A DNA stretch of 41,730 nucleotides from an uncultured Candidatus Marinamargulisbacteria bacterium (GCA_903897765.1 CAIUCY010000169.1:1-41730); one strand, 5' to 3'; positions 9,568-41,730 are shown, counted from the stretch's first letter. Numbers and translations are program-made. The notes: a model not told the origin generated them from the letters alone.

Positions 9568-9580
9568 GAGAACATGACGA

Positions 9581-9949: not shown

Positions 9950-9992
9950 ATAGAATTTTAGATAGAAAAGATTGGTAAGGAGGACGAGTTAA

Positions 9993-10262
9993 ATGGCAAT
10001 GAAACAACGTGAAAATGCATCCAGTAATAATATGAGACCTGTAAAGTTCCGCAAAGTGAAGAAGCGCCCTTGTTCGCTTTGTACGGCTCGGGTTGAGGAA
10101 CTCGACTACAAAGAGGTCAATACTTTAAAGCGTTATATTACCGAGCGTGGAAAGATAGGGCCTCGTCGTGCGACAGGCTTATGTCCTATTCATCAACGAG
10201 CCGTGGCTCATGCGATCAAACGTGCTCGTGAAGTGGCTCTCGTGCCGCATGTTTTGGATTAA
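9993..10262 (+). CDS. rpsR: 30S ribosomal protein S18
   Basis: DYKEVNTLKRYITERGKIGPRRATGLC..HQRAVAHAIKRAR is the canonical S18 core. Confidence 0.9.
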   Translation: MAMKQRENASSNNMRPVKFRKVKKRPCSLCTARVEELDYKEVNTLKRYITERGKIGPRRATGLCPIHQRAVAHAIKRAREVALVPHVLD

Positions 10263-10276
10263 GGGAGGCTATTTTA

Positions 10277-10792
10277 ATGAAAGTTATACTACTTGAAGAT
10301 GATACAAAGTTAGGGGATAAAGGCTCGGTCGTTGAGGTTGCAAAAGGGTTTGCCCAAAACTTCTTGATCCCTTTCAAAAAGGCTGTTATTGCAACAAAAG
10401 GCAATATCTCGGTAATGACCAACGCTCTTAATATGACGAAGAAAAAAGTCGCGAAAGAGCAAAAATCCCATCAAGACCTTGCGGATAAACTCAGCGGTTT
10501 ATCCCTTGATTTTACTCACAAAGCAGGTGCGACTGGGCATCTTTATGGCACCATTACAACCGAGCAAATTGTTGAGTATATCAAAGAGAAGTCGGGCGTT
10601 GAGATTTCGAAGAAAAAAGTCATTTTAAGCACCCATATCAAAATGGCAGGCACGTATTCGGCCAAGATCAAATTATATTCGGGTGTCGATGTGACACTAC
10701 CCATCGTGGTTACCGCGGTCAGTGATGAAGAGATCGGCTCTAAAGAAGGCCGTCCACGTATACGAACAGCTCGTCACGCAACCAAGTTCTAA
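10277..10792 (+). CDS. rplI: 50S ribosomal protein L9, with a basic C-terminal extension of about 20 aa
   Basis: MKVILLEDDTKLGDKGSVVEVAKGFAQNFLIP matches the L9 N-terminal domain. At 171 aa it is longer than the usual 150 aa or so. Confidence 0.9.
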   Translation: MKVILLEDDTKLGDKGSVVEVAKGFAQNFLIPFKKAVIATKGNISVMTNALNMTKKKVAKEQKSHQDLADKLSGLSLDFTHKAGATGHLYGTITTEQIVEYIKEKSGVEISKKKVILSTHIKMAGTYSAKIKLYSGVDVTLPIVVTAVSDEEIGSKEGRPRIRTARHATKF

Positions 10793-10912
10793 GATCAAGT
10801 CGCATTCGGCATTATAATGTCGTTGCCTTCGTTGCGCGCCCCTCGATGTACTGGGAGTACACCTGCGGGGCTTGCTCCTAGGCGCCTAGTGCTAATACCG
10901 TTTGCTGCCTTG
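10782..10912. repeat. Conserved structured intergenic element, copy 1 (rplI-uvrC spacer)
   Basis: 10811-10912 aligns without gaps to 21005-21106 (about 70 of 102 identical by hand). The central hairpin TGTAC-TGGGA-GTACA carries two compensatory pairs relative to copy 2. A CCAAGTT motif lies upstream in both copies. Confidence 0.6.
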
Positions 10913-10941
10913 ATAAACGTAGTTCCAAAGGGTGCTAGTAA

Positions 10942-12552
10942 ATGGTAACTCCCCCTCTGAATCTTTCCGAGATCCCATCTTCGCCAGGAATTTATCTCAT
11001 GAAGAATGAGGCCGGCGAGGTGCTTTATGTTGGTAAAGCCAAGAATCTTCGTAAGCGGGTGATCCAATATTTTAAACCCACATCGCCCCTCGCTCCCAAA
11101 ATAGCCGTATTGGTCGAACAGATCGCGCATATCGACTATGTGGTGGTTCAAAATGAAGTCGAGGCCTTGGTTCTAGAAAATCAGTTCATCAAATCCCATG
11201 ATCCCAAATACAATACGCGTCTCAAAGACAGCAAAACCTATCCCTATCTAAAGATCGACTTAAGCGAACCCTTCCCAAGACTCATTCAGACACGCATACG
11301 GAAAGTAGATAAGGCCCTGTATTTTGGCCCTTTCGTGTCAGGTTATTTATTGTCCGAGTTAATGAGCGTGATCCGTGATCATTTCCACTTGAGGCGATGT
11401 AAAAAGATCCCCAAGCGAAACATCCCTTGTCTTTTTTATCATATGGGTCGATGTTCAGCGCCCTGTATTGATAAGATTACGGTAGAGGACTATCAAGTTT
11501 GGATCAAAGAGATCGCCATGCTTTTAGAAGGGCGCTATGGCAAGCTCATCGCCTCCGTGCATGAGCAAATGAGTCGAGCGAGTGATGCGTTGAACTTTGA
11601 AAAAGCGGCTCAGTTTCGTGAGCAATTAAAAGCTGTTGAGCAGCTTCGAGATAAGCAACGGGTCGAATCCCTGACCCGAGATGACAATCTTGATGTATTT
11701 TTGGTGATGATGTTTGATGACTATGTGATCTTGCAAGTATTTCGTGTAGTAGAGGGCTGTTTAGTGCAAAATTTCAGTTTTGACATGGAGACCGCCAGTA
11801 TTGAGGAGAAAGGGGATGTTTTGGCCATGGGGGTCATGCAGTTCTATCATGAGCAGTCCGATGTTCCATCACGAGTCATTGTTGATCATGAGCCAGAGGG
11901 TCTTCGGGGATGGCTTGCCGAAAGAAATATGAAATTATCTCTAGCCTCATCGAGTTCTGCCGAAGGAAATTTAATGGATATGCTTCGTCAAAATGCGTTC
12001 CATGTCATGAAGCGAAAACTCATAACCAAAGAGGGGCTCTCTTACGATCAAGTCTCAAAAAAATTAGCTGACGACCTTGGCTTATCGAAGAGACCTCGAC
12101 GTATTATCGGTATCGATATCTCTCATTTAGGCGGAACGCAAATTGTGGCGTCCTGTGTTAGTTTTATGGATGGGATCCCCGATAAAGAAGAATATCGAAA
12201 GTTTAATATCAAAACGGTGGCCTATAATGACGATTATGCCTCGATCGCCGAAGTGGTTACCCGAGTCGCAAAACGGTTTATCCCTAAGCATAGTCCCGAT
12301 CTAATATTGATCGATGGAGGGCTTGGCCAACTTCACGCGGCGATGGAGGCACTCCGTCAATTAGAGGTAAAAGAGCTTGATATTTTATCGCTCGCAAAAA
12401 AAGAAGAAATTGTTTATTTGCCGACCCGCCCGAATGGGGTAAAATTAGACCATCAACATTCGGGGCTAAAAATCCTGCAGCAAGTTCGGGATGAAGCTCA
12501 CCGATTTGCCGTACAATTTCAGCGCCATAAAAGGAAAGCGATCTTTAAATGA
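10942..12552 (+). CDS. uvrC: Excinuclease ABC subunit C, lacking the C-terminal (HhH)2 domain
   Basis: GIY-YIG (PGIYLMKNEAGEVLYVGKAKNLRKRV), Cys cluster (RRCKK...CLFYHMGRCSAPC), UVR domain (LNFEKAAQFREQL) and RNase H-like endonuclease domain. The protein ends right after RDEAHRFAVQFQRHKRK. Confidence 0.9.
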   Translation: MVTPPLNLSEIPSSPGIYLMKNEAGEVLYVGKAKNLRKRVIQYFKPTSPLAPKIAVLVEQIAHIDYVVVQNEVEALVLENQFIKSHDPKYNTRLKDSKTYPYLKIDLSEPFPRLIQTRIRKVDKALYFGPFVSGYLLSELMSVIRDHFHLRRCKKIPKRNIPCLFYHMGRCSAPCIDKITVEDYQVWIKEIAMLLEGRYGKLIASVHEQMSRASDALNFEKAAQFREQLKAVEQLRDKQRVESLTRDDNLDVFLVMMFDDYVILQVFRVVEGCLVQNFSFDMETASIEEKGDVLAMGVMQFYHEQSDVPSRVIVDHEPEGLRGWLAERNMKLSLASSSSAEGNLMDMLRQNAFHVMKRKLITKEGLSYDQVSKKLADDLGLSKRPRRIIGIDISHLGGTQIVASCVSFMDGIPDKEEYRKFNIKTVAYNDDYASIAEVVTRVAKRFIPKHSPDLILIDGGLGQLHAAMEALRQLEVKELDILSLAKKEEIVYLPTRPNGVKLDHQHSGLKILQQVRDEAHRFAVQFQRHKRKAIFK

Positions 12553-13676
12553 AGCGGATCTTATTATTGTTAAGTTTTATTATGCTCGTAACCTTCGCAA
12601 CTGACCCTAATGATGAGGTCGCTAAAAAAACGCGCGAATTAGAAGCCCTCAATCAACGGATACTCCAACACCGCGATGTGATCGGCCGTACTGAGCGACA
12701 GGCACGGGATGTCGCGCGTACGATCACCAAGATCGAAAGTGAGTTGGTTCGACAAAATCAACTTCACGAGAAAGTGAGCGGCCAGATCGACCACACCAAA
12801 GGCGAGATCGGCAAAGTTGAGCTGGATATCTTTAACGAACGAAAAAAATTCGAGATCGCCCAAGCGAGTTTGACTTACAAGGTCGACCAATTCCATCGTT
12901 TAGGGGAAACCAACTTTATTGAGATCCTTTTTAACTCGGATGAATTTACCGATCACCTCAATGAGCTCTATTTCTTTGAATCTATGATCACGACGAATGT
13001 GGTGTTTTTAAATGATGTGCGAGAGAAAAAAACACAATTAACCCATCAAGAAAATAAATTAAGTGGTTTGCTTGGCAATCTCAAAACTCAAGAGCATCAA
13101 ATTGTTGTCATCAAAACGGTCATCAATGAGAATAAAAAAACGAAGGAAAAATTATTCCAAGAGCTCATGGCGCAAAAAGCGGAATACGAAAAACAACTGA
13201 GTCAACTTGAACGAGACTCGGCTCAGATCCAAGAAATGATCGTACGATTGCAAAAACAAGGGGGACGTACACAATGGATAGGGGACGGCCGCTTTATTTG
13301 GCCCGTTATTGGGAAAATAACGTCAGATTTCGGGAAACGAATGCACCCTATTTTTAAAGTCGAGGCCTTCCATACAGGGCTCGATATCGCTGCGCCGACC
13401 GGGCGTCCGGTTTTCGCCGCCGCAGATGGGGTTGTCTTGTATTCCGGCAATTGGGGAGGCTATGGGAAGACCGTTGTGATCGATCATGGGGCTGGATTCA
13501 CAACCATTTATGGCCACTTATCGGCATTCTATGTGAAACGCTCGGCACAGATCACGAAAGGTCAAATTATCGCTCTTGTTGGAAGTACAGGGTGGGCGAC
13601 AGGCCCCCATCTGCATTTTGAGATTCGCAAAGGTGGAAATGCAATAGATCCTCTTATCTACTTGCCAAAACAATAA
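12549..13676 (+). CDS. M23 family metallopeptidase with N-terminal coiled coil (EnvC-like murein hydrolase activator)
   Basis: Signal/TM segment, then a long coiled coil. The M23 motifs are HTGLDIAAP and GPHLHFEIR. ATGA overlap with uvrC. Confidence 0.85.
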   Translation: MKRILLLLSFIMLVTFATDPNDEVAKKTRELEALNQRILQHRDVIGRTERQARDVARTITKIESELVRQNQLHEKVSGQIDHTKGEIGKVELDIFNERKKFEIAQASLTYKVDQFHRLGETNFIEILFNSDEFTDHLNELYFFESMITTNVVFLNDVREKKTQLTHQENKLSGLLGNLKTQEHQIVVIKTVINENKKTKEKLFQELMAQKAEYEKQLSQLERDSAQIQEMIVRLQKQGGRTQWIGDGRFIWPVIGKITSDFGKRMHPIFKVEAFHTGLDIAAPTGRPVFAAADGVVLYSGNWGGYGKTVVIDHGAGFTTIYGHLSAFYVKRSAQITKGQIIALVGSTGWATGPHLHFEIRKGGNAIDPLIYLPKQ

Positions 13677-13684
13677 AAGTCGCT

Positions 13685-14845
13685 ATGATACACCTGATGA
13701 AAAAATATTTGCGCATTCCCCTCGTCTTACTCCTCCTTGTTGGTGTTAGTTATCCTGTTAATTGGAAACTTCAGACACTTCAGGTGTTTGACATTATTCA
13801 GGGTAATTATGTTCAGGATAATATTTCCGAAAAAACCTTAACCTATGGTGCGATCAAGGGCATGCTCGAGTCGTTGAATGATCCCTACTCTCGGTTTCTA
13901 GAACCTGATAAATATACTGAAATGAAGTCAAGCCTAGCGGGCAATTTCTTTGGTATTGGCATCCATATTGGGATGAAGAATAATAAATTAACCGTGATCA
14001 CACCCATTAGTGGCACCCCAGCGGATAAGGCCGGCATTCGAGCAATGGATAGCATTGTCTCCATTAATACGGTTACAACCGAAAAAATGTCGCTCGAAGA
14101 AGCCGTTTCGTTGATCCGCGGCCCCGAAGGAAGCAAAGTCACGTTATGGATCAAACGAGAGTCTGTTGAGACGCCATTCGCGGTGAGCATTGTTCGTGCC
14201 AAGATCGATATCAAGAGCATTGAAGACGCGAAGATCCTTGCTGATGATGTGGGTTATCTTCGACTTAATAGTTTTGAAAGCAAAGAAGCTACAAAGGAAA
14301 TGGCGACGGAGATCAAGGCTCTTAAGAAAAAGGGCGCAAAGCACCTTATCATTGATGTCAGGAACAATGGAGGCGGTTTGCTTTCTAATGCTCAAGGGAT
14401 AGCCAGTTTGTTAATTGATGAAGGTGTCGTCGTCTATACCGTAGATCGTAGTGGGAATAAATTGAGCTTACCGGTTACCCCTGGAAAGAAAATTTTTGAT
14501 GGTTCCGTTGTCATTCTGATAAATGGTTCATCCGCTTCGGCTTCTGAAATTTTGGCGGGTGCGGTTCGAGATAATCATCGTGGCAAATTGGTCGGAACCC
14601 ATTCCTTTGGAAAAGCTTCGGTTCAAAATATTATTCCCATGTCAGATGGTTCCGCTATTTTGTTAACTATTGCAAAGTATTTAACCCCGAACGGAAGCAA
14701 TATCCATACCGTTGGCATCCCGCCGGATGTGCTTGTCGATATTCCGTCTTCAGATATTGAGGCGATCCAAAAAGGAACCTTCACCTATTCGATGGATAAA
14801 GATCCGCAAATCCTGAAAGCGATACAAGTCGTTAAATCATTGTAA
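13685..14845 (+). CDS. S41 family C-terminal processing peptidase
   Basis: Signal peptide, PDZ segment (GTPADKAGIRAMDSIVSIN), catalytic region (IIDVRNNGGGLL, LINGSSASASEILAGA). Confidence 0.9.
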   Translation: MIHLMKKYLRIPLVLLLLVGVSYPVNWKLQTLQVFDIIQGNYVQDNISEKTLTYGAIKGMLESLNDPYSRFLEPDKYTEMKSSLAGNFFGIGIHIGMKNNKLTVITPISGTPADKAGIRAMDSIVSINTVTTEKMSLEEAVSLIRGPEGSKVTLWIKRESVETPFAVSIVRAKIDIKSIEDAKILADDVGYLRLNSFESKEATKEMATEIKALKKKGAKHLIIDVRNNGGGLLSNAQGIASLLIDEGVVVYTVDRSGNKLSLPVTPGKKIFDGSVVILINGSSASASEILAGAVRDNHRGKLVGTHSFGKASVQNIIPMSDGSAILLTIAKYLTPNGSNIHTVGIPPDVLVDIPSSDIEAIQKGTFTYSMDKDPQILKAIQVVKSL

Positions 14846-14867
14846 TCTCCCCTAAGGTTCTGCATTT

Positions 14868-15752
14868 ATGAAACGTTTTATTGGCACGATCATTGCCATC
14901 ATCGCTGCATTGATCATGGTAAATCTAGTGTTGATGTTTGTTCACTGGGTTACTCTTGAAAAAACGGCTGAAGAATTCCTTGAGCCGACCCCGATCGATA
15001 TCGACCTTTTACCGACATCCCCAAAATCACATTCAAAGCCCTATAGATATCCTTCCGCCAAGGTGGCCATCGTTATTGATGATCTAGGGGTGAAAACCCC
15101 GCAATATCTGATATTAATGGATATCCCGTTCAAGTTGAATCTGGCTATCATTCCAGGATTAAAGAATAGCAAAAGTCTTGTAAAGGAATTAGCCTTAATG
15201 GATCGTTATGAATTGCTACTCCATATGCCAATGGAACCATTTCCCCACCGAGGAGATCAAGAAAGTCAGGGGCCTAGTCGGATAAAAACTTATCCATTTT
15301 ATATTGATAGGCATAGCAAAGCTTCGTCCATTTCATTGGTGTTAGATGAGGCAATGGATCAATTGAATGGCTGGGGTTTCATTAAAGGTCTAAATAATCA
15401 TATGGGTTCATATGTGACGTCGAGTCCAAATATGATGGTCCCTATAATAGACTGGACACGATCGCATCAACTCTTCTTTTTAGATAGTCTGACCAGTCGA
15501 ACGACAGTCGCCTACGAAATGGCTCGACGTCAGCATATCCCCGCTTATCATAATGAGATGTTCTTGGATGGGATCGATGAGCCTGACGTGATCCGTGAAC
15601 GGCTAAGAAAGGCGGTAGCGAGGTCGCGTTCGGAGGGACAAGTGGTTGTGATCGGGCATATCACCCGAAAATATACACTGCCGGTGTTAAAAGAAATGAT
15701 GCCCCAATTCGCTGATCATGGCGTGAGTTTCGTTTGGTTGTCGGAGTTATAG
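14868..15752 (+). CDS. Divergent polysaccharide deacetylase family protein (YibQ-like)
   Basis: N-terminal TM helix plus VAIVIDDLG and NHMGS motifs. The envC-ctp-yibQ-type neighbourhood supports the call. Confidence 0.75.
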   Translation: MKRFIGTIIAIIAALIMVNLVLMFVHWVTLEKTAEEFLEPTPIDIDLLPTSPKSHSKPYRYPSAKVAIVIDDLGVKTPQYLILMDIPFKLNLAIIPGLKNSKSLVKELALMDRYELLLHMPMEPFPHRGDQESQGPSRIKTYPFYIDRHSKASSISLVLDEAMDQLNGWGFIKGLNNHMGSYVTSSPNMMVPIIDWTRSHQLFFLDSLTSRTTVAYEMARRQHIPAYHNEMFLDGIDEPDVIRERLRKAVARSRSEGQVVVIGHITRKYTLPVLKEMMPQFADHGVSFVWLSEL

Positions 15753-15760
15753 ATTTCCTC

Positions 15761-15788
15761 TTGAAAAATATTTTAGCAGTGTCATAAT
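15761..15788 (+). promoter_or_regulatory. Putative sigma-70-type promoter of clpB
   Basis: TTGAAA (15761-15766), 16-nt spacer, CATAAT (15783-15788), about 35 nt upstream of the clpB ATG. Confidence 0.55.
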
Positions 15789-15799
15789 TAGACTGCTAA
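15773..15799 (+). promoter_or_regulatory. CIRCE-like inverted repeat (putative HrcA operator) overlapping the clpB promoter
   Basis: TTAGCAGTG-N9-GACTGCTAA compared with the CIRCE consensus TTAGCACTC-N9-GAGTGCTAA (15 of 18 arm positions). It is 27 nt with 9-9-9 geometry. Confidence 0.65.
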
Positions 15800-15823
15800 A
15801 ATTTATGTTAAGGGGTGGTTGTA

Positions 15824-18397
15824 ATGCTCAATCTCAATAAATTTACCATTAAAGCTCAAGAGGCTGTCCAAGCAGCTTTTCAGTTAGCTCAGGATCGTGA
15901 TCATCAAGAGGTCACGCCTATTCATTTATTATCTGCCATGCTTGATGTCGAGGACAGCTTGGCCGCGTCGTTGCTTGCTCAGATCGGGGCAAGAATGGAT
16001 GTCATAACAGATGAGGTTGCAAGGTTACTAAAAAATTATGCCAAAGTCGAAGGGGTTGCCCAGCAATATGTCCACAATGATCTAGGGCTTGTCATCAAAC
16101 AGGCACAAAAAGAAGCAGACCGACTGAAGGACGACTACGTGACGAATGAACATTTATTGCTCGCTATGGTCGATGTTGCCGGCGATGCCAAGCAGGTTCT
16201 AAATGACGCGGGTGTCACAAAAGACTCACTATTAAAGGTGTTTAAACAAGTACGTGGGGATGAGCGGGTGACCGATCCCAATCAAGAAGACAGCTTTCAG
16301 GCGATCAAAAAATATTGCAAAGACCTTAATGAACTTGCTCGTAATGGCAAATTAGACCCTGTGATCGGCCGAGATGATGAAATCCGTCGTATCATTCAGG
16401 TGTTGTCTCGACGAACGAAGAACAACCCTGTTCTTATTGGTGAACCCGGAGTCGGCAAAACGGCTGTGGTCGAGGGGCTTGCGTTGCGTATCGTCAACGG
16501 CGATGTCCCCAGTGTTTTGAAGAATATGCGCATCGAAGCGCTCGATATGGGGGCGTTGATCGCGGGTGCAAAATATCGAGGTGAATTTGAAGATCGGTTG
16601 AAAGCACTTATCAAGGAGATCGAGAAATCAGAAGGATCGGTTATCCTCTTTATTGACGAACTGCATACCATTGTCGGGGCTGGGGCAGCGGAAGGCTCAA
16701 TGGACGCCTCTAATATGTTGAAGCCGGCTCTGGCAAGAGGTTTGTTGAGGTCTATCGGTGCTACCACTCTTGATGAATATCGGAAATATATCGAAAAAGA
16801 TGCGGCGCTTGAACGTCGCTTTCAACCCGTGTTCATCTCTGAGCCGAATGTCGAGGATACGATCGCTATTTTGCGAGGACTTAAGGAAAAGTACGAGATC
16901 CATCATGGTATACGCATAAAAGATGCCGCGATCGTCGCGGCGGCTCAATTATCAAATCGCTACATTGCGGATCGATTTTTGCCAGACAAAGCCATTGACC
17001 TGATAGATGAGGCTGCCTCACGACTTCGGATCGAGGTCGATAGTATGCCACAAGAGATCGACGAATTGGAACGTCGCAGCGTACAACTCGAAATAGAACG
17101 ACAAGCCTTGAAACGGGAGACTGACCCCAAAAGCAAAGAACGACTTGAAAAGATCATCAAAGACCAAGCCGAGGTCGATGAACAGAAAAGCAAACTGAAG
17201 TCACATTGGATGCAAGAAAAAGCCATGATCGAATCGGTCAGTGATATTAAAAAGAAGATCGAAGAAGCCACGAGTCGGGCGCAGCGTGAAGAGCGGTTGG
17301 GTAATTTAGAGGCTGTGTCCAAGATTCGATACGGAGAGATCGTCGAACTGCAAAACAAGCTTAATGATGCTCAAACAAAAATCGGCCAAATCCAAGATGG
17401 AACAAGGATGTTAAAGGAAGAGGTCGATGAGGATGATATTGCACAGATCGTCTCGAAATGGACAGGGATACCCGTAACCAAGATGTTGGGCAGCGAAATG
17501 CAAAAATTACTCCACCTCGAAGCCGACCTTCATGAACGGGTGATCGGTCAAAATGAAGCGATCGAGGCTGTCTCAAATGCTGTTCGTCGTTCTCGGTCAG
17601 GTATATCCGACCCGAATCGTCCGATCGGATCATTTATTTTCTTAGGCCCAACAGGGGTTGGAAAGACCGAATTAGCCAAAGCTTTAGCGGCGCATCTCTT
17701 TGATAAAGATGCTATGGTCAGAATAGATATGAGTGAGTATATGGAAAAACATACGGTGGCACGTTTGCTTGGTGCCCCCCCCGGATACGTCGGGTATGAC
17801 GAGGGCGGACAATTGACCGAGGCGGTGCGTCGTCGTCCTTACGCAGTGATCTTGTTCGATGAGATAGAAAAGGCGCATCCTGATGTCTTTAATGTGCTGT
17901 TACAGATCCTTGATGATGGACGTTTGACCGATGGCCAAGGACGCAACGTAGACTTTAAGAATACGGTGGTCATTATGACGTCCAATATTGGAAGTGACTT
18001 GATCCTTCAGGCCGACTCGGTGGACGAAGTTAAAGAGGAAGTGCTAGACCGAATGAAACAGCATTTTCGACCCGAGTTCCTTAATCGTGTGGATGAAATG
18101 ATCGTTTTTGGACGACTCACGATAGAAGAATTGCGTCAGATCGTCTCAATACAACTTCATATATTGGCCACCCGTTTACAAGCGCGTGACATCAATTTGA
18201 CGTTAACGGACGCACTGAAAGATCATTTAGCCAAAGTGGGATTTGACCCGATCTTTGGGGCAAGACCGCTAAAACGGGCCGTGACACGCCTTGTCCAAGA
18301 CCCCTTGGCGACCCAGATCCTTTCGGGTGCAATTGGACATGGGAGTCATGTTATGGTTGATTATGAAGGTGAAGCGGTCGTTTTTCGTGTACAATAG
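15824..18397 (+). CDS. clpB: ATP-dependent chaperone ClpB
   Basis: [15 protein letters not shown]-terminus. Two AAA modules ([16 protein letters not shown]), a long middle coiled coil, [10 protein letters not shown] prefer the ATG at 15824 (AAGGGG upstream) over the GTG at 15815. Confidence 0.95.
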
Positions 18398-35907: not shown

Positions 35908-36582
35908 ATGACTGGATTTCGGCATTGGTGTATGTGGGGAGCAGTCCTTGTTACACTTAGTGTCGGAGCCGTTAACCTTGAAGAGAATCACTTTTTCACT
36001 AAACCGAACAAGATATTTTATGTCTATGTTGTTAATCGTGAGTTGATCCAAAATGAGGGTGTGTATCATCAAGAACCTACCAATATAAATCTCGCGCTTG
36101 AGCTTTATCGTCAATTTGAGAGACGTCTTCAGAAAAAAGGATGCTCAGTAAAACCAATATTAGTTGAGACTTCGAACATTACTTTCAATGAAGCGGATAT
36201 TATCCTCGTTATTCGATCAACCTTTATTTCCTCCTTAAGAGGATATTACCCGTTGCAAAAGAACGGGAATTTTAAAGATGTTGAACTTGATCTCGAATTA
36301 TTTATTCCAAAGGTCTTTGGCACAAAGCCAGTCGCTGATTATTATATTCGTCAAACGTTGCCTCGTACGTTAATGACTGAAAAATCGGTGACAAAAGAGT
36401 TCGCCGGCAGATTAAGCCGACTTTATATTTGGCAGAGTAATGAGCGTTTATTGAACTATTTAAATGGGGACATAGATGAAAGATCGTTTATTCTTGGGCG
36501 TTTAATCCTACATCCGGATGATGAAGTTGCCAGAAAACTCCTTGAATTGTCAGCTCCTTCTCTCCCCCACAATCGTCACTAA
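35908..36582 (+). CDS. Hypothetical exported protein (224 aa)
   Basis: Hydrophobic N-terminus (WGAVLVTLSVGAV). No recognisable domain. Confidence 0.55.
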   Translation: MTGFRHWCMWGAVLVTLSVGAVNLEENHFFTKPNKIFYVYVVNRELIQNEGVYHQEPTNINLALELYRQFERRLQKKGCSVKPILVETSNITFNEADIILVIRSTFISSLRGYYPLQKNGNFKDVELDLELFIPKVFGTKPVADYYIRQTLPRTLMTEKSVTKEFAGRLSRLYIWQSNERLLNYLNGDIDERSFILGRLILHPDDEVARKLLELSAPSLPHNRH

Positions 36583-37739
36583 TGCTTTATGATCGGCTTT
36601 ACTTTGAAGATCAGGAGCAACGATGCTTAGCCCCCTACGCGATAAATTCTAAGGGGTCTGGCGGACGTCGATACCCCGAAGATATGGATCCATTTCGGAC
36701 GGCGTTTCAGCGTGATCGTGACCGTATCGTTCATTCAAAGGCCTTTCGACGTCTAAAACACAAAACGCAGGTCTTTGTTATATTCGAAGGGGATCATTTT
36801 AGAACCCGTCTAACTCATACTCTTGAGGTGACGCAAATTGCTCGACATATGGGGCGAATGATGGGGCTTAATGAAGATCTGATCGAGACCATTGCTTTAG
36901 CGCATGATTTAGGTCATACCCCCTTTGGGCATGCTGGTGAGGACGTTTTAAATGAACTGCTATTAGATATCGGAGGCTTTGAGCACAATGAACAAAGCAA
37001 GCGTGTCGTTGAGTTGCTTGAGAATAAATATCCTAATTTCCCTGGATTAAATCTCAGTATCGAGGTATTGGAAGGTTTAATGAAGCACCATACACCCTTT
37101 GACCACGACGACAAGGTTACAGCAGATGAGATCATCTTCCCTACCCTAGAGGCGCAAGTCGTTAATCTGGCTGATCAATTGGCGTATGTTAGTCACGATC
37201 TAGACGATGGGATCGCTTCGGGAATATTAAATATGGACGAACTGGTAACCCATGTTGATTTGTGGCGTGAGGCCCAATTGTTCACCGATAGGGTCAATAC
37301 AAACCTTAACCCCGCGCAAACACGGTTTAGCAATGTGCGTTACCTTATTAATAAAATGGTTAATGAGGGGGTTGCGTTTTCCGAGATGACTCGAATACAA
37401 CAAGGTGTTGAAGTGCTTGACGATGTATATTCCTGTCGGGATCGAATTGTGGGGTTCTCTCCAGAACTTGAATTGAAAATTACGAAACTTCAACTCTTTT
37501 TAAATGAACGGTTCTATCAAAATTATCGAGTATTGAAAATGACGATTCACGGCAAACAGTTGATCAAAGATCTCTATTGTACATTTCTAAAAAATGTTGA
37601 ACTCCTCCCAATTCACGAGTATGAGAAGGTGTTGTCTGGCGAAGAACCCCGCCGGATAGTGGCAGACTATATCGCTTTAATGACAGATAATTATGTTGCA
37701 AATGAGCATCGTCGTCTTGTCGAGGCTAAGGCTTTTTAA
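36582..37739 (+). CDS. dgt: dGTPase-like HD-domain triphosphohydrolase
   Basis: FQRDRDRIVHSKAFRRLKHKTQVF, RTRLTHTLEV, ALAHDLGHTPFGH and VSHDLDD are the Dgt-family signatures. Confidence 0.85.
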   Translation: MLYDRLYFEDQEQRCLAPYAINSKGSGGRRYPEDMDPFRTAFQRDRDRIVHSKAFRRLKHKTQVFVIFEGDHFRTRLTHTLEVTQIARHMGRMMGLNEDLIETIALAHDLGHTPFGHAGEDVLNELLLDIGGFEHNEQSKRVVELLENKYPNFPGLNLSIEVLEGLMKHHTPFDHDDKVTADEIIFPTLEAQVVNLADQLAYVSHDLDDGIASGILNMDELVTHVDLWREAQLFTDRVNTNLNPAQTRFSNVRYLINKMVNEGVAFSEMTRIQQGVEVLDDVYSCRDRIVGFSPELELKITKLQLFLNERFYQNYRVLKMTIHGKQLIKDLYCTFLKNVELLPIHEYEKVLSGEEPRRIVADYIALMTDNYVANEHRRLVEAKAF

Positions 37740-38808
37740 TCGAAGCTTTATATTCTGCGGCCAAAGCCAAGGCACTTGCGAGAATATCATTGATATCTTT
37801 TTTAAGTTGATCATGGGTAGATAAGGCGGTGGGTTGCTGAGCCTGACTAACGAGACCTTTTTGTTGAAAGCCTTGATAGATGAGATCCTTCTCTCTTTTT
37901 TTAAGCCCGTCAATATTGTTAAGATCATTTCGTGAAAACGCGAGATGTTCTTCTAAAGACCGTTTGTATAGATCACCTGAACGTTCAAGAAAGTATGCAA
38001 AACAAAGGGTGCTTATTTTTATAGATAATACGCCTAGTTTTTTAAATTGGTCTTTCGATAAAGGGCCGCCATTATTACTTTGACTTAGATTTTCAAAAAA
38101 TCGTTGCCCTAGGGATTCTTTTTTTCTTAGTTTTAATAAAGTATCGAGTGGACAGTTAGCGATCATGGCCTCATCCGTGACGAGAAGTAATGGGATTAAT
38201 AATTGGTCAGATTCTTGCGAACTTTCGGATGCGAGACGTTTTAAAAAGGACATTTTTTTGGCAGCCCCTAAGGAATCAATGCTTCCGAAGCGAAAGGTGA
38301 ATTCGAGCGTAGCAATTTGAACATAGGGTAAAAGGGCATCAATGACGTTGTCCGACATGGTGTCAGTGGTTCGATAAAGTTTCACGAGAAACTCGGACTG
38401 TTTTCCTTTGTCCAATTTTTTAAAAGAATTGAAATTCCCGCTTAGAGTTTCTTGACAGAGCCAAATATATTCATTGGCACTAAATTGGTTTAAATATATT
38501 TGATCTTCAATTTGACCTTGGAGTTTATCGTCTTCTGTTTTGTCGGGGGATGATATCTTCGATCCTTTTTCAACTTCATGTGTCTTTTGCTTGATCATTG
38601 TTTTATCGCCGATGTCGAGTTTTATTTTTTGATCGATGTTGTTTTCATCGTCGTTTGTTCTTCCCGTACGAACAGACTCAAAATCGGTCTTTTTAGCATA
38701 GATCTTTGAGGCAAGATTTGCGATCGCGAGATTATCAGCAAAACCAACCTCAACAGAGATGGGCGAATAGACAGTATTATCAGACAATGAACGGGTAGTG
38801 GTTTCCAT
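37726..38808 (-). CDS. Hypothetical protein (360 aa)
   Basis: Long ORF with AAGGA 5 nt upstream of the ATG, 8 nt downstream of the preceding gene. No recognisable domain. Convergent 14-nt overlap with dgt. Confidence 0.6.
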   Translation of the reverse strand: METTTRSLSDNTVYSPISVEVGFADNLAIANLASKIYAKKTDFESVRTGRTNDDENNIDQKIKLDIGDKTMIKQKTHEVEKGSKISSPDKTEDDKLQGQIEDQIYLNQFSANEYIWLCQETLSGNFNSFKKLDKGKQSEFLVKLYRTTDTMSDNVIDALLPYVQIATLEFTFRFGSIDSLGAAKKMSFLKRLASESSQESDQLLIPLLLVTDEAMIANCPLDTLLKLRKKESLGQRFFENLSQSNNGGPLSKDQFKKLGVLSIKISTLCFAYFLERSGDLYKRSLEEHLAFSRNDLNNIDGLKKREKDLIYQGFQQKGLVSQAQQPTALSTHDQLKKDINDILASALALAAEYKASIKKP

Positions 38809-38816
38809 GATTTCCT

Positions 38817-39836
38817 TTACAACGAAGTTTGGTGTGTTCTTATTACGTTATCTTCAAGCTGAAGTTTTTGAAGATCAGTAAGGGAATTAATGATCGTTAG
38901 TTCTCCTGTTAATTTCTCAACGGCAATGACTCGGTTTATTTTCGAAAAAACAGGGTGAAGACCATTGTAAACATTGAGTCCGTCTTCACTGGCCTGTTTA
39001 AGAATGTTCTGTGTATTGCTAATGGTATTGAGTTGGTTGTTGCTTAGTGTGGGATAAAAGGTCTCTCTGACGCTCTGGACATCTTGCCAACCCAGCATTT
39101 TTAAGGTTTCTTCACCATTTACACATCCGGTGTCCTCATCATAAGAAACGATCTCAGGTACAAATTTTTGTGCAAAGCACTTTTGATCACGAAGAAATTT
39201 TAAAGATGACCGTAAATTAAGGCTAAATAATTTTTGCTGTTGAGCAATATTATCGGTATTTCCTGGGGGAGAAGAATCTTCGGTATCTTGAACATCATCT
39301 GTTTTGAGGGTTGAAATAACTTCAATCTCAAGTTCATCCGTTTTATCCGAGCCAAGAACTATTTTCTTTAAGGTTTTAGTGTTGAGTTGTGCCTGAATGG
39401 TTGAAGCCGCCTCGACGGTGATGATGCCGTCTTCAGAGGCAGTTAACTCTTCTAATAGAGCTGCTTTAACGTTTTGTGATTGTTTGTCGAGTTTTTTTAT
39501 TCCTCCATCGGGCTGAATGATGCTGCTAATGACCTCTCCTTCAACGTAAGGGATCGCTTTATTTTGATTGACCTGATTTGTGAGGGTGTTTTGTTGAACG
39601 GTTTTAAAATTAGTCTGGGTCTGGCTCAGTTCCTCTGTAAAGATCCGGTCACTTACAACAGCTTGGTCAAGATCACTCGGTTCGGTTTCTGGGGTTTGTG
39701 CGGCTGTTTTAAATTGAGCCGTAAATGTTTTTTGAGCGGAAGGTTTTTCTGTTGCTTGTTGAAGCGATAAGCCATTATCAACGGCGTCTTGGTTGAGCCC
39801 ACTTCCGATGCCTTGTATGTTATTGCTAATATCCAT
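38817..39836 (-). CDS. Hypothetical polar protein (339 aa), Ser/Thr/Asn/Gln-rich N-terminal half
   Basis: I prefer the ATG at 39836 (GGGGGA 5 nt upstream; MDISNNIQGIGSG...) over the TTG at 39866. No signal peptide, no recognisable domain. Confidence 0.6.
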   Translation of the reverse strand: MDISNNIQGIGSGLNQDAVDNGLSLQQATEKPSAQKTFTAQFKTAAQTPETEPSDLDQAVVSDRIFTEELSQTQTNFKTVQQNTLTNQVNQNKAIPYVEGEVISSIIQPDGGIKKLDKQSQNVKAALLEELTASEDGIITVEAASTIQAQLNTKTLKKIVLGSDKTDELEIEVISTLKTDDVQDTEDSSPPGNTDNIAQQQKLFSLNLRSSLKFLRDQKCFAQKFVPEIVSYDEDTGCVNGEETLKMLGWQDVQSVRETFYPTLSNNQLNTISNTQNILKQASEDGLNVYNGLHPVFSKINRVIAVEKLTGELTIINSLTDLQKLQLEDNVIRTHQTSL

Positions 39837-39878
39837 TTCTATCCCCCGTACTCTATATATCGACAAAAATCCTTAAAA

Positions 39879-39902
39879 GTATTCATGAAAATATTTGAAT
39901 AC
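39879..39902. promoter_or_regulatory. Perfect 7-bp inverted repeat in a divergent promoter region (candidate operator)
   Basis: GTATTCA-N10-TGAATAC, lying between the divergent starts at 39836 (-) and 39962 (+). Confidence 0.4.
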
Positions 39903-39961
39903 ATATAAAAATGAAATTATGTCGATACTAAGTGTGGAAGTCAAAATGGGGGGCGTTAATC

Positions 39962-40741
39962 ATGACCGATATAAATCTTAATGTATCAGCAAGTAATGGA
40001 GTTAGTAATATCTCGCAAGTCGGGGATCAAAACAGTGCCCAACTATCAAGTGTCTTACTTTCAAATACCGATGCGACAACAAGTAGCTATGATAGTTCGG
40101 TGACGAGTGATACGTCTGTCGCTACGGATGTAACGCAAAATACGTCGTCTACTCAATCTACTTCAACATCAACGCCGGTTACATATAGTGAGGCGAAGGC
40201 CAGTGTATTGGCTCAAATTGACTCGATCAAGGGCCTAGATCTTGAGGCAGATATCGCTCCGGATATTGCTGGCAAGGCAGCAACCGCAACTTCTGCTGCT
40301 GTTCCCGCCTCGAGATCAGCTTCAAATCAGGCTGCACAGACAGCACTTGAGGCCAGAAATGCTTCGCGAACAGCGTATAATCAGGAATTGACCGCTCTTA
40401 AATCAACCTTTACATCTGAGTTCGAAGGACTTGATTCGAGTAAGACAACAAGCGCATATAATAAGGCGCTTACGAAAATTAATGGGGATGCAACCACGAC
40501 CCCGCCTATTTTGTCACAAGCCCAACGACTAGACAACTTGGCCTCAAAATATAGTACGTCCTCTATTGCCGGGGACGTTTCGACATCTTGTAATAATGCG
40601 AAAACTACGTTGAGTAAAGATAATTCGGCCATATCAACCTATGAAAACAAGGCACTGGTTAAGGCCATGATCAAAAGTATATTGATCGGTGAGTTTAAGA
40701 AGGATTTAGAAAATTTGGGAAGCACGGATTATAAAGTATAA
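39962..40741 (+). CDS. Hypothetical Ser/Thr-rich protein (259 aa)
   Basis: I prefer the ATG at 39962 (GGGGGG 8 nt upstream; MTDINLNVSASNG...). Low-complexity S/T region followed by a helical-looking region. Confidence 0.55.
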   Translation: MTDINLNVSASNGVSNISQVGDQNSAQLSSVLLSNTDATTSSYDSSVTSDTSVATDVTQNTSSTQSTSTSTPVTYSEAKASVLAQIDSIKGLDLEADIAPDIAGKAATATSAAVPASRSASNQAAQTALEARNASRTAYNQELTALKSTFTSEFEGLDSSKTTSAYNKALTKINGDATTTPPILSQAQRLDNLASKYSTSSIAGDVSTSCNNAKTTLSKDNSAISTYENKALVKAMIKSILIGEFKKDLENLGSTDYKV

Positions 40742-40761
40742 ACAAAGGGGGCTGAGATAAA

Positions 40762-41730
40762 ATGGGTGATCAAATCAATGCGGTAAGTGGAATTAATGTT
40801 AGTGCAGGGGCAACCTCAACCAGTAATTCATCACATAGTGTTATGGAGGCAGCTGGAGACTCAGCCCTTTCGGCTAGTTATGGTTCTGACTCTAGTTCCA
40901 GTACTAGTTCGATTGATTCGGTATGGTCCAGTACGTTTGAAAAACAAAGTGAAGCTATTTCGGATAGTGATGATAAAACAAAAGCGATCAATGCAGCCGT
41001 CAATCAAAATTCCTTGACGCTTCAAGCTTATACAACGTTGACTTCTGATAATCCCGATCTGTCAAAGCTTAGTGATTCGCAATCCCCGACCGTAGGGGCT
41101 TCGACGATCAATAGTTCGGGCCAGCGAGAAACCAAGAATGTTGAGACCTTTATCAATGTGGATGCAGGGACAAGTTATGTGACCGCCCATGCTTCCGAAA
41201 TATTTGGGGCTGGCGTTGATGTGAATAGCCTTTCTGCCACGGAGAAGGCCCAAAAGATATCCGATTATGTGACCAAAAATGCCACGTATGTTGCCGACTC
41301 AACTCCAAATTGGTCAACCTTTAGTCAGTTCACAGGAAGCGGATTAAAAGGGGATTGTGAAGATATCGCCAACTTCACAGCTAGTTTGATGCGTGGGGCT
41401 GGACTAACATCTGATCAGGTTAAGGTGGGTGTTGATGCAGGGGCAGCAGGCTCGGTGGGTCACGTTGAGGTCATCCTCAATCTTGATGGGAAGAATGCTT
41501 CGGTATTGGACATTTCGGCCCAGACAGAGAGTCACACTACAGCGAATATAAATAATTTACAAAGCCTTTCTTCGAAGGAATCAACCAATCCCTTTGAGGT
41601 TGTCTATTCAGATAAAGGGGGTGTCAAAGCGGATGGCTCACATGTTTTTGACAATGGAGTAACCGATACAACCGCAGTGGCTACAACGTCAGCAACGACA
41701 ACAACCACCACCACAAAAGAGATCAAAGAC
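40762..41730 (+). CDS. Hypothetical protein with transglutaminase-like cysteine protease core, 3' end outside the window
   Basis: I translated codon by codon from the ATG at 40762 (AGGGGG upstream) and found no stop up to nt 41730. It is absent from the ORF track because it is open-ended. The core is KGDCEDIANFTASLMRGAGL (Cys codon 41356-41358), GHVEV (His 41461-41463) and VLDIS (Asp 41509-41511), followed by a poly-Thr linker. Confidence 0.7.
   Translation, partial: MGDQINAVSGINVSAGATSTSNSSHSVMEAAGDSALSASYGSDSSSSTSSIDSVWSSTFEKQSEAISDSDDKTKAINAAVNQNSLTLQAYTTLTSDNPDLSKLSDSQSPTVGASTINSSGQRETKNVETFINVDAGTSYVTAHASEIFGAGVDVNSLSATEKAQKISDYVTKNATYVADSTPNWSTFSQFTGSGLKGDCEDIANFTASLMRGAGLTSDQVKVGVDAGAAGSVGHVEVILNLDGKNASVLDISAQTESHTTANINNLQSLSSKESTNPFEVVYSDKGGVKADGSHVFDNGVTDTTAVATTSATTTTTTTKEIKD

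What the first reader, a model, noticed from the sequence alone, without database searches (positions are those of the whole stretch)
37726..41730. Divergent cluster of four orphan polar proteins with secretion-substrate-like N-termini
Two back-to-back two-gene units (37726-39836 on the minus strand, 39962-41730+ on the plus strand) encode proteins with no domain I can recognise, apart from the last one. Three of them begin with short, similar, uncharged N-termini rich in Ser/Asn/Ile/Gly: MDISNNIQGIGSG, MTDINLNVSASNGVSNIS and MGDQINAVSGINVSAG. They have no hydrophobic signal peptide, and long Ser/Thr/Gln low-complexity regions follow. All three have G-rich Shine-Dalgarno sequences (GGGGGA, GGGGGG, AGGGGG). 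N-termini of this kind resemble substrates of non-Sec export routes, for example flagellar or type III-type secretion, but this is speculative. The last gene carries a papain-like or transglutaminase-like catalytic core, which would fit an effector or surface-enzyme role. The HEXXH protein at 6331-7224 has a similarly polar N-terminus with no signal peptide.
Basis: inference. Interest (0 to 1): 0.6.

Follow-up and report, generated by a model that had tools for sequence, protein, structure and literature searches.

The report
Flagellum-linked regulon of signal-less polar proteins
Four unannotated genes beside a flagellar export operon in an uncultured Margulisbacteria genome belong to a small lineage-specific group of co-regulated acidic proteins with no ordinary secretion signal; they are probably exported through a flagellar-type channel, but this has not been tested.

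Summary
**Observation:** confirmed. The four ORFs, their N-termini and their G-rich ribosome-binding sites are as described.

**Organism:** a Candidatus Margulisbacteria MAG. The window is a whole contig.

**Main results**
- The cluster is conserved in synteny in relatives. It lies between dGTPase and yqeK, followed by flhA-flhF-flhG-fliA.
- P1 and P2 have only 13-14 relatives among 5.8 billion proteins. They occur in two families of one order.
- P4 is a LapG/BTLCP-like Cys-His-Asp protease. It has no signal peptide and carries a strictly C-terminal helical module.
- That module defines a new family. It is found in 12 of 12 genomes of the order and 0 of 134 elsewhere in the phylum, with 56 clusters among 1.84 billion proteins.
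- Nearly all family members, and P3-P4, share the promoter GATACAT-N16-GGCGATAT, which has a sigma-28-like -10 box.
- The N-termini of P2, P3 and P4 are compositional outliers (about the 99.5th percentile for polar residues).
- Type I secretion parts are absent from the order. Two flagellar-type export sets are present.
- FlgM and FliK are encoded elsewhere, so P3 and P2 are not those proteins.

**Verdict:** The support comes from context, co-regulation and composition, not from any direct test. A weak resemblance of the C-terminal module to injectisome needle subunits did not hold up. This is a new variant of a known kind, of moderate interest.

The parts
37726..38808 (-). P1, 360 aa. About 105 N-terminal residues are disordered and polar, followed by an all-alpha solenoid (ARM/HEAT-like) domain. 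It is the second gene of the leftward operon, starting 8 nt after the P2 stop.
   Evidence: ORF. AlphaFold2: residues 1-89 have pLDDT below 50 and residues 110-330 have pLDDT 76-91. Foldseek finds only weak armadillo-repeat matches, best E 0.06, probability up to 0.89. There is no Pfam or NCBIfam match. It has 13 relatives among 5.8 billion proteins and is present in 10 of 13 genomes of the class.
38817..39836 (-). P2, 339 aa. The N-terminus MDISNN... is conserved, about 190 residues are low-confidence or disordered, and a conserved alpha/beta domain spans residues 195-326. It is the first gene of the leftward operon and the most widely kept of the four genes.
   Evidence: ORF and start codon. 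Alignments. AlphaFold2: C-terminal domain pLDDT 75-89. No solved fold matches it; best Foldseek E 0.6. It has 14 relatives among 5.8 billion proteins. It is present in 11 of 146 genomes of the phylum, in families f1 and f3 only.
39837..39961 (.). Divergent control region. It holds a perfect inverted repeat, GTATTCA (39879-39885) and TGAATAC (39896-39902). For P3-P4 it holds GAATACAT (39897-39904), a 16-nt spacer and GTCGATAC (39921-39928). For P2-P1 it holds GTCGATAT on the minus strand (39864 down to 39857).
   Evidence: Sequence. Coordinates. Mean column identity is 76% across five distant loci, higher than for the proteins. In a weight-matrix scan of the genome, P3-P4 scores 37.6 bits, the best site. 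P2-P1 scores 15.4 bits, the weakest of 8 sites.
39962..40741 (+). P3, 259 aa. It is Ser/Thr-rich and acidic, with no Lys or Arg before residue 79. It is poorly conserved (131-287 aa in relatives, absent in one). It is the first gene of the rightward operon.
   Evidence: ORF. A word-based search of 5.8 billion proteins finds only itself. Positional orthologs are 15-31% identical. Composition. A canonical FlgM is encoded elsewhere.
40762..41730 (+). P4, N-terminal 323 aa (cut by the contig end). It has a polar N-terminus with no Lys or Arg before residue 61, then a BTLCP/transglutaminase-like cysteine protease core. The triad is Cys199 (41356-41358), His234 (41461-41463) and Asp250 (41509-41511). 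The C-terminal helical module lies on contig C131:2973-3320 (-).
   Evidence: Transglut_core, 31.3 bits against a cut-off of 23. Orthologs also match Peptidase_C93 at 32.0 bits against a cut-off of 27. The profile hits LapG structures 4fgo (E 3.3e-6) and 4u65. Triad positions. C-terminal fragment and its alignment.

Best explanation
The four genes are two divergent operons, P2-P1 and P3-P4. They belong to an order-specific group of co-regulated genes in Margulisbacteria. The products are acidic, lack Sec, Tat and type I signals, and start with long polar segments that lack positive charges.

The proposed mechanism is as follows.
1. A sigma-28-family factor transcribes the group from promoters of the form GATACAT-N16-G[GT]CGATAT. 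Three such sigma factors are encoded in the genome, and one, fliA, lies four genes downstream in relatives.
2. The proteins are then exported through a flagellar-type type III export gate, using their disordered N-termini as the signal.
3. The strictly C-terminal helical module shared by P4 and its paralogs acts as a docking or chaperone-binding element.
4. P4 delivers a LapG-like Ca-dependent cysteine protease or transglutaminase activity outside the cytoplasm.

What is shown: gene structure, synteny, phyletic range, the shared promoter, the shared C-terminal module, the protease core, and the absence of a type I system.

What is inferred: which sigma factor acts, export itself, the role of the C-terminal module, and the targets of the protease.
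For: **Synteny.** The order dGTPase, P1, P2, P3, P4, yqeK, flhA-flhF-flhG-fliA is kept in loci whose dGTPase is only 61% identical to the window's. The window's own continuation, contig C131, carries the P4 C-terminus, yqeK and flhA.

**Shared promoter.** It lies upstream of nearly all family members in all genomes of the order. In this genome a weight-matrix scan gives 8 sites above 14 bits, and every one sits just upstream of a ribosome-binding site and an ORF. In five relatives the pattern is found 34 times, against 4 for the reversed control.

**C-terminal module.** It always ends at the protein's last residues. It is present in 12 of 12 genomes of the order and 0 of 134 elsewhere. Large members pair it with a BTLCP domain.

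**N-terminal composition.** P2, P3 and P4 are outliers.

**Export machinery.** Two copies each of flhA, flhB, fliP, fliF and fliI are present. No HlyD-type type I membrane fusion protein passes its cut-off in the order, 0 of 12.

**Precedent.** Campylobacter jejuni exports non-flagellar proteins through its flagellum, and some of these are sigma-28 regulated (PMC9856085).
Against: - No experiment or expression data could be obtained.
- The -35 element, GATACAT, is not the sigma-28 TAAA. The flagellin gene on C12 uses the canonical TAAA-N15-ACCGATAA instead. The group may therefore answer to another sigma factor or to an activator.
- The P2-P1 promoter is a weak match (15.4 bits). In family f3 its -10 box reads CGTAT.
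- The housekeeping genes dGTPase and yqeK are equally syntenic, so adjacency alone is weak evidence.
- Flagella occur in 135 of 146 genomes of the phylum, but these genes occur in only 11-12. They are not tied to flagella as such.
- Canonical FliA also occurs in genomes that lack the family.
- The C-terminal module has no detectable similarity to flagellar axial proteins.
Confidence: 0.4

Rival explanations
1. The proteins are accessory structural or assembly parts of the extra flagellar system of this lineage. Examples would be filament-, cap- or hook-associated proteins, a ruler, or dedicated chaperones. On this reading they are exported, or act at the export gate, but serve the flagellum itself rather than acting as effectors.
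For: The cluster is adjacent to flhA-flhF-flhG-fliA in all relatives. That copy of flhA is specific to the class, whereas the phylum-wide arrangement is flhA followed by a minimal sigma factor. The -10 box is sigma-28-like. The C-terminal helix could be a chaperone-binding or assembly helix like those of late flagellar substrates (established knowledge: FliS, FlgN and FliT bind C-terminal helices). P3 orthologs in family f3 are small (131-146 aa) and lie just upstream of P4.
Against: FlgM (one copy) and FliK (two copies) are encoded elsewhere, so the obvious missing roles are already filled. No Pfam flagellar family matches any of the four proteins. The module's profile hits no flagellar axial protein even at E below 50. 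G069 and G058 have the extra flagellar genes but lack P1 and P2, and G069 also lacks the module family. A protease core and multiple paralogs of 83-1059 aa are unlike structural flagellar parts.
Confidence: 0.2
2. The proteins are not exported at all. They form an intracellular, lineage-specific group of co-regulated, partly disordered proteins, for example regulatory or scaffold proteins of a differentiation or stress programme. The polar N-termini are simply disordered linkers.
For: No secretion signal of any defined class was demonstrated. AlphaFold2 shows long disordered N-terminal regions joined to folded C-terminal domains, an alpha-solenoid in P1. Such architectures are common in cytoplasmic scaffolds. 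The -35 element is not that of sigma-28. Transglutaminase-like domains also occur in cytoplasmic proteins (Pfam PF01841 is a broad superfamily).
Against: The closest characterised relatives of P4's catalytic domain (LapG, BTLCP) act outside the cytoplasm (established knowledge). The N-termini of P2, P3 and P4 lack Lys and Arg over 30-78 residues and rank with flagellar export substrates such as the hook protein in the same tail of the proteome. A strictly C-terminal shared module on proteins of 83-1059 aa is typical of sorting or docking domains. The conserved position beside the export-gate gene also argues against it.
Confidence: 0.25
3. The proteins are exported by a route other than type III. 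The conserved C-terminal module would be an uncleaved C-terminal secretion signal of the type I kind, or a signal for a system not yet described.
For: The shared element lies at the extreme C-terminus. The proteins are acidic and lack N-terminal signals. BTLCP proteases are classically partnered with type I-secreted adhesins (established knowledge on LapG and LapA). One member of the group has an EF-hand Ca-binding motif.
Against: No HlyD-type type I membrane fusion protein passes its cut-off in any of the 12 genomes that carry the family. The only one in the class is in G069, which lacks the family. No type I ABC exporter passes its cut-off. No RTX repeats were seen. The single secretin is not linked to these genes.
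Confidence: 0.08

Closest known systems
Flagellar-T3SS-exported, sigma-28-co-regulated non-flagellar proteins of Campylobacter jejuni (Feds, FspA, FlaC, Cia proteins). Other cases, such as YplA of Yersinia enterocolitica, are cited from my own knowledge.
   Same: They are non-flagellar proteins without Sec signals. They are co-expressed with late flagellar genes and leave the cell through the flagellar export gate (PMC9856085). Here the genes sit beside flhA-fliA, have a sigma-28-like -10 box and have polar N-termini with no positive charges.
   Different: There is no sequence similarity. Export is untested here. The promoter's -35 element differs from the sigma-28 consensus. The members share a conserved C-terminal module, which the Campylobacter proteins do not. 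The host lineage has two flagellar gene sets.
LapG / BTLCP (Pfam PF06035, Peptidase_C93; structures 4fgo and 4u65)
   Same: P4 and its orthologs match the family profile and keep the Cys-His-Asp triad, with the His-to-Asp spacing conserved among the P4 orthologs.
   Different: LapG is a periplasmic, Sec-exported enzyme of about 200 aa. It works with LapD and with a type I-secreted adhesin. P4 has no signal peptide, has a 150-aa polar N-terminal extension and a C-terminal helical module, and its genome lacks a type I system. The window's own P4 reaches only the broader Transglut_core threshold.
Injectisome needle subunit SctF (Pfam PF09392, T3SS_needle_F)
   Same: The C-terminal 70 aa of P4-type members form a predicted helix-turn-helix with a Pro at the turn. 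One ortholog aligns to positions 2-69 of the 71-position model. Some family members are needle-sized, 83-112 aa.
   Different: Only 2 of 26 members hit the model, at E 0.0095 and 0.08, far below the cut-off of 29.4 bits. None of 10 small members hits it. Two profile searches of all PDB sequences find no needle protein. No injectisome genes are present.
Sigma-28 (FliA) class 3 promoters, TAAA-N15-GCCGATAA
   Same: The -10 box G[GT]CGATA[TC] matches 6-7 of 8 consensus positions. It lies 28-41 nt upstream of the start codons.
   Different: The upstream element is GATACAT at a 16-nt spacing, not TAAA at 15 nt. The flagellin gene of the same genome has the canonical form.

Membership tests
BTLCP / Peptidase_C93 (LapG-like) | Profile match above the curated threshold | tested here: met
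   The L010 ortholog scores 32.0 bits on PF06035 against a cut-off of 27. The window's P4 passes only Transglut_core, 31.3 bits against 23. The ortholog profile hits LapG structure 4fgo at E 3.3e-6.
BTLCP / Peptidase_C93 (LapG-like) | Cys-His-Asp catalytic triad | tested here: met
   Cys199, His234 and Asp250 in the window's P4. Cys and His are invariant in the alignment, and Asp lies at His+16 in all orthologs.
BTLCP / Peptidase_C93 (LapG-like) | Sec signal peptide and periplasmic location | tested here: not met
   The N-terminus MGDQINAVSGINVSAG has no hydrophobic core and no Lys or Arg before residue 61. No dedicated predictor was run.
BTLCP / Peptidase_C93 (LapG-like) | Partnership with a type I-secreted adhesin system (LapA, LapD, LapBCE) | tested here: not met
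   The type I membrane fusion protein model TIGR01843 passes its cut-off in 0 of 12 genomes of the order. No type I ABC exporter passes its cut-off. LapD was not searched.
Injectisome needle SctF (PF09392) | Profile match above the gathering score | tested here: not met
   The two hits have E 0.0095 and E 0.08 (the latter 13.6 bits) against a cut-off of 29.4 bits. Only 2 of 26 members hit, and 0 of 10 small members. No needle protein appears in PDB profile searches.
Injectisome needle SctF (PF09392) | Encoded in a genome or locus with injectisome parts (a T3SS-linked secretin and so on) | tested here: not met
   All type III parts found are of flagellar type and in flagellar clusters. The one secretin is not in a T3SS operon.
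Flagellar type III late export substrates | Disordered N-terminal export region without a Sec or Tat signal | tested here: met
   The first 36 residues of P2 and the first 89 of P1 have pLDDT below 50. P2, P3 and P4 are compositional outliers.
Flagellar type III late export substrates | Transcription from a sigma-28 (class 3) promoter | tested here: inconclusive
   The -10 box matches but the -35 element does not. The flagellin gene has the canonical form.
Flagellar type III late export substrates | flhA-dependent export | not testable with these tools
   This needs an experiment.
FlgM anti-sigma-28 (as a reading of P3) | Match to PF04316, and being the genome's FlgM | tested here: not met
   P3 has no Pfam hit. 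A canonical FlgM is encoded elsewhere in G000 and in four relatives.
FliK hook-length ruler (as a reading of P2) | C-terminal Flg_hook (T3S4) domain, PF02120 | tested here: not met
   P2 has no Pfam hit. Two FliK-type genes lie elsewhere in each genome. The fold of P2's C-terminal domain has no PDB match.
Type I secretion substrates | Presence of a cognate ABC exporter, membrane fusion protein and outer-membrane channel | tested here: not met
   as above. The one genome of the class with a true type I pair (G069) lacks the family.

The most novel reading that the evidence does not exclude
The order-specific family with the shared C-terminal helix, including needle-sized members of 83-112 aa and protease-bearing members such as P4, is the cargo or polymerising component of one of the two flagellar-type machines of this lineage. 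That machine would have been turned towards protein delivery. This would be an origin of a secretion device from a flagellum that is independent of the injectisome, with its own sigma-28-like promoter class.
Probability: 0.1. Interest if true: 0.85.

Novelty: new variant of a known kind. Interest (0 to 1): 0.55.

Why it matters
Margulisbacteria are an uncultured sister lineage of Cyanobacteria. Their members include symbionts of termite-gut protists (Termititenax) and an intracellular symbiont of the placozoan Trichoplax (10.1101/568287). Almost nothing is known about how they interact with other cells.

If this explanation is right, one order has built a set of 5-10 operons of exported proteins around a duplicated flagellar apparatus. 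Those proteins include LapG-like proteases. This would add a case outside Proteobacteria of the flagellum serving as a general secretion channel. It would also give a defined promoter and a defined C-terminal module with which to find the cargo in metagenomes.

Even if export is not confirmed, two things stand. One is a new, sharply delimited protein family. The other is a conserved promoter class with a sigma-28-like -10 box and a different upstream element. Both can be used in annotation.

Tried and rejected
1. **Homology searches on P1, P2 and P3.** Pfam and NCBIfam gave nothing. A word-based search on P3 found only itself.
2. **Profile searches of the PDB.** For P1 and P2 the hits were only chance-level.
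3. **Structure prediction.** AlphaFold2 with Foldseek gave no match for P2 and only generic armadillo-repeat similarity for P1.
4. **Needle-subunit homology of the C-terminal module.** Pfam gave two sub-threshold hits out of 26 members, none in 10 small members and none in two PDB profile searches. Rejected as a membership claim and kept only as a low-probability lead.
5. **Similarity of the module to flagellar axial proteins.** None, even at E below 50.
6. **P3 as FlgM and P2 as FliK.** Rejected, because canonical genes lie elsewhere.
7. **Type I secretion.** Rejected for lack of a membrane fusion protein or exporter.
8. **A T3SS-linked secretin or injectisome.** The one secretin lies 10-15 kb from a fliF cluster but next to unrelated genes.
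9. **Tying the promoter to one sigma factor by phyletic pattern.** This failed. The minimal sigma factor next to the ancestral flhA and the sigma factor in the flgB cluster are both phylum-wide. Canonical FliA is in 22 of 146 genomes, including some without the family.
10. **G-rich ribosome-binding sites as a special mark.** Rejected as ordinary for this genome.
12. **Earlier notes of this scan.** They held nothing on this locus.

Full report
**What is there**

The window is the whole of contig C169 of a 2.16-Mb, 250-contig, 82%-complete assembly. At its right end lie four ORFs in two divergent pairs.
- P1: 37726-38808 (-), 360 aa.
- P2: 38817-39836 (-), 339 aa.
- P3: 39962-40741 (+), 259 aa.
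- P4: 40762-41730 (+), 323 aa, cut by the contig end.

P2 and P1 are 8 nt apart, and P3 and P4 are 20 nt apart, so each pair reads as an operon. P4's missing C-terminus (115 aa) is on the 3.3-kb contig C131, followed by yqeK, an RRM protein and flhA.

**Who and where**

The neighbouring dGTPase finds its relatives in Candidatus Margulisbacteria MAGs. It is 84% identical to its counterpart in a 'Marinamargulisbacteria' bin. It is 61-62% identical to those in bins labelled Termititenax, Riflemargulisbacteria, Marinamargulisbacteria and GWF2_35_9.

Four of the five loci show the same order: che gene(s), dGTPase, P1(-), P2(-), P3(+), P4(+), yqeK(-), flhA, flhF, flhG, and fliA where the locus reaches it. 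The fifth locus, the GWF2 bin, keeps only P2.

Upstream in the window are cheA and cheB. The cluster is therefore embedded between chemotaxis genes and a flagellar export operon.

**How orphan they are**

P1, P2 and P3 have no Pfam or NCBIfam match.
- Profile searches of 5.8 billion proteins find 14 relatives for P2 and 13 for P1. All are unnamed or hypothetical.
- P3 finds only itself.
- Across 146 genomes of the phylum, P2 is in 11, all in families f1 and f3 of one order.
- P1 is in 10 of 13 genomes of the class.

Flagella, by contrast, are near-universal: FlhA is found in 135 of 146 genomes. The four genes are therefore not core flagellar parts.

**Structure**

AlphaFold2 with the available alignments gives two partly confident models.
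- **P2.** The N-terminal 190 residues are low-confidence or disordered. The C-terminal alpha/beta domain (195-326) has pLDDT 75-89. It has no match among solved structures; the best E is 0.6.
- **P1.** About 105 N-terminal residues are disordered. An alpha-solenoid follows, with pLDDT 76-91. It shows only weak armadillo-repeat similarity, E 0.06.

**P4**

P4 has a transglutaminase-like core. Its orthologs also pass the BTLCP (Peptidase_C93) threshold. The ortholog profile hits the LapG structures 4fgo and 4u65. The triad Cys199, His234 and Asp250 is intact.

Unlike LapG, P4 has no signal peptide. It has a 150-aa polar N-terminal extension and a conserved C-terminal helical module.

**The C-terminal module defines a family**

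A profile of P4 orthologs splits into two kinds of hits.
- The BTLCP-like domain also occurs inside giant ORFs of 2300-4300 aa in every genome of the class.
- The last 45-70 residues recur at the extreme C-terminus of many other proteins.

The consensus of the module is (E/D)SPGxLFLIQQxLQxxKDxIxAxxxxGKxxxDVxxxxxQxF. In this genome it is found in four proteins:
- P4;
- a 225-aa protein on contig C168;
- a 158-aa protein on contig C213;
- more weakly, a 114-aa protein on contig C113.

The family is in 12 of 12 genomes of the order and in none of the 134 others in the phylum. An exhaustive profile search of 1.84 billion representative proteins finds only 56. In almost all of them the match ends at the last residues. 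Nine of the ten large members scanned carry a transglutaminase/BTLCP-like domain. Small members are 83-112 aa. In two relatives the gene at P4's position keeps the module but lacks the protease.

**A shared promoter**

The 125-bp spacer between P2 and P3 is more conserved than the proteins, with 76% mean column identity over five loci. It contains three elements.
- A perfect inverted repeat, GTATTCA-N10-TGAATAC.
- For P3, GAATACAT-N16-GTCGATAC.
- For P2, on the other strand, GTCGATAT.

The same architecture, GATACAT-N16-tGGCGATATTA..aGTG, stands upstream of nearly every family member in every genome examined.

A weight matrix built from relatives scores 8 sites above 14 bits in this genome. 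Each is followed by a ribosome-binding site and an ORF.

| Site | Score (bits) |
|---|---|
| P3-P4 | 37.6 |
| C168, 225-aa family member | 30.6 |
| C213, 158-aa family member | 29.6 |
| C213, 1108-aa protein | 21.8 |
| C113, 114-aa protein | 20.0 |
| C69, 130-aa EF-hand protein | 17.2 |
| C196, 126-aa partial ORF | 15.8 |
| P2-P1 | 15.4 |

In five relatives a loose pattern is found 34 times, against 4 for the reversed control.

The -10 box resembles the sigma-28 consensus GCCGATAA, but the upstream element does not resemble TAAA. A flagellin gene of the same genome has the canonical TAAA-N15-ACCGATAA. The group is therefore real, but its sigma factor is not identified.

**N-termini**

In a crude set of 1539 genes:
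- P2, P3 and P4 are at the 99.5th percentile for polar residues in the first 25 positions.
- Their first Lys/Arg falls at residue 31, 79 and 61.
- The other non-membrane entries in that tail include a hook-protein fragment and other members of the group.

The N-terminus of P2 is conserved among 15 orthologs. A short shared pattern occurs at 0.9% of candidate starts, though I defined that pattern after seeing the data. G-run ribosome-binding sites are ordinary in this genome.

**Export routes available**

The genome and four well-assembled relatives each carry two copies of flhA, flhB, fliP, fliF and fliI.
- One set looks ancestral. Its sigma-factor landmarks are widespread in the phylum: a minimal sigma factor next to flhA, and a sigma factor in a cluster that holds flgB/flgC, fliE/fliF and apparent flgH/flgI genes, the latter read from ORF sequences without a family search.
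- The flhA-flhF-flhG-fliA copy beside P1-P4 is the extra one, restricted to this class.

No injectisome was found. The one secretin is not in a type III operon. No type I membrane fusion protein or exporter passes its threshold in the order. For proteins without Sec signals, a flagellar-type gate is therefore the only export route I could identify.

**What they are not**

- A canonical FlgM and two FliK-type genes lie elsewhere. P3 is therefore not the anti-sigma factor and P2 is not the ruler.
- The module's profile hits no flagellar axial protein.
- The Pfam needle-subunit model (PF09392) is hit by only 2 of 26 members, below threshold. It is hit by none of 10 small members. PDB profile searches find no needle protein. 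The needle resemblance therefore remains an unconfirmed lead.

**Most likely mechanism**

The four genes most likely belong to a lineage-specific group of proteins that are co-transcribed from a promoter class with a sigma-28-like -10 box. These proteins would be exported through a flagellar-type type III gate, with the polar N-terminus as the signal. The C-terminal helix would serve as a docking or chaperone-binding element, and P4 would deliver a LapG-like protease activity.

The closest precedent is the export of non-flagellar, partly sigma-28-regulated proteins through the Campylobacter jejuni flagellum (PMC9856085).

The shown steps are the anatomy, synteny, phyletic range, promoter, module and catalytic core. 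The inferred steps are the sigma factor, export, the module's role and the protease's targets. I put this explanation at about 0.4. The rivals are:

| Rival | Probability |
|---|---|
| Accessory parts of the extra flagellum | 0.2 |
| Intracellular group with no export | 0.25 |
| Another export route | 0.08 |

**Novelty**

The kind of system is known: accessory substrates of the flagellar export apparatus. The new elements are the order-restricted family with a shared C-terminal module, its pairing with BTLCP proteases, its own promoter class, and its setting in a lineage with two flagellar gene sets. I rate it a new variant of a known kind, of moderate interest. What limits it is the absence of any direct evidence for export.

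Noticed in passing
G000 contigs C11, C131, C33, C70, C94, C221, C47, C79; relatives G058-G069: In the five genomes checked (G000 and four relatives), flhA, flhB, fliP, fliF and fliI are each present twice. Two full-length flhA copies are seen throughout the class (G058-G069). Most other genomes of the phylum have one FlhA. The flhA-flhF-flhG-fliA copy appears to be the extra one.
   Followed up: partly
G000:C11:8732-9334 (+); L074:5565-6476 (-): A minimal 200-aa sigma factor (regions 2 and 4 only) lies a few hundred bases downstream of the ancestral flhA. It has orthologs in 135 of 146 genomes of the phylum, usually next to flhA. In family f3 it is fused to an upstream 100-aa ORF.
   Followed up: partly
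L073 (G060:C1:44000-63999), 9506-17422 (-): This is a compact second export-gate cluster. In order it holds an unknown 156-aa ORF, a divergent FlgE/F/G-like axial protein (284 aa), two FliN-domain proteins, fliO, fliP, an unknown 289-aa protein with a signal-like N-terminus, fliQ, fliR and flhB.
   Followed up: partly
G000:C15:23460-30434 (+) and giant ORFs in all 13 genomes of the class: ORFs of 2300-4300 aa contain an internal domain similar to P4's BTLCP core (E down to 1e-42).
   Followed up: no
window 1-600 (+): The first ORF of the window is the C-terminal part of a group-3 sigma factor (regions 2, 3 and 4). It scores 102 bits on the FliA/WhiG model, below the cut-off.
   Followed up: no
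Its N-terminus (MPPAIGPSIGYPPINP...) is proline-rich rather than Ser/Asn-rich. Nothing ties it to the cluster.
   Followed up: partly
G000:C69:21340-21732 (+): A 130-aa acidic protein with an EF-hand motif carries the group's promoter (17.2 bits) and a polar N-terminus (ASTISNTVNASNNSS...).
   Followed up: no
Upstream of family members, e.g. G000:C168:1026-1041 and C213: Members of the group share a near-identical ribosome-binding context, AAAAGGGGGAATT(T/A)A(T/A), directly before the ATG in genomes of different families.
   Followed up: no
G000:C12:7340-7539 (+): The flagellin promoter region has a canonical TAAA-N15-ACCGATAA. About 10 bp further upstream than in the group's promoters, it also has a TCGATACAAT box like the group's upstream element. 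That box could therefore be an activator site.
   Followed up: no
G000:C221:24554-25501 (-) and the equivalent in four relatives: The only secretin-domain gene (about 315-326 aa) lies 10-15 kb from one fliF-fliI cluster in all five genomes checked, but not in the same operon.
   Followed up: no
window 35908-36582 (+): A 224-aa ORF with a hydrophobic N-terminus and no family match overlaps the start of the dGTPase gene. It is conserved at that position in the closest relative.
   Followed up: no
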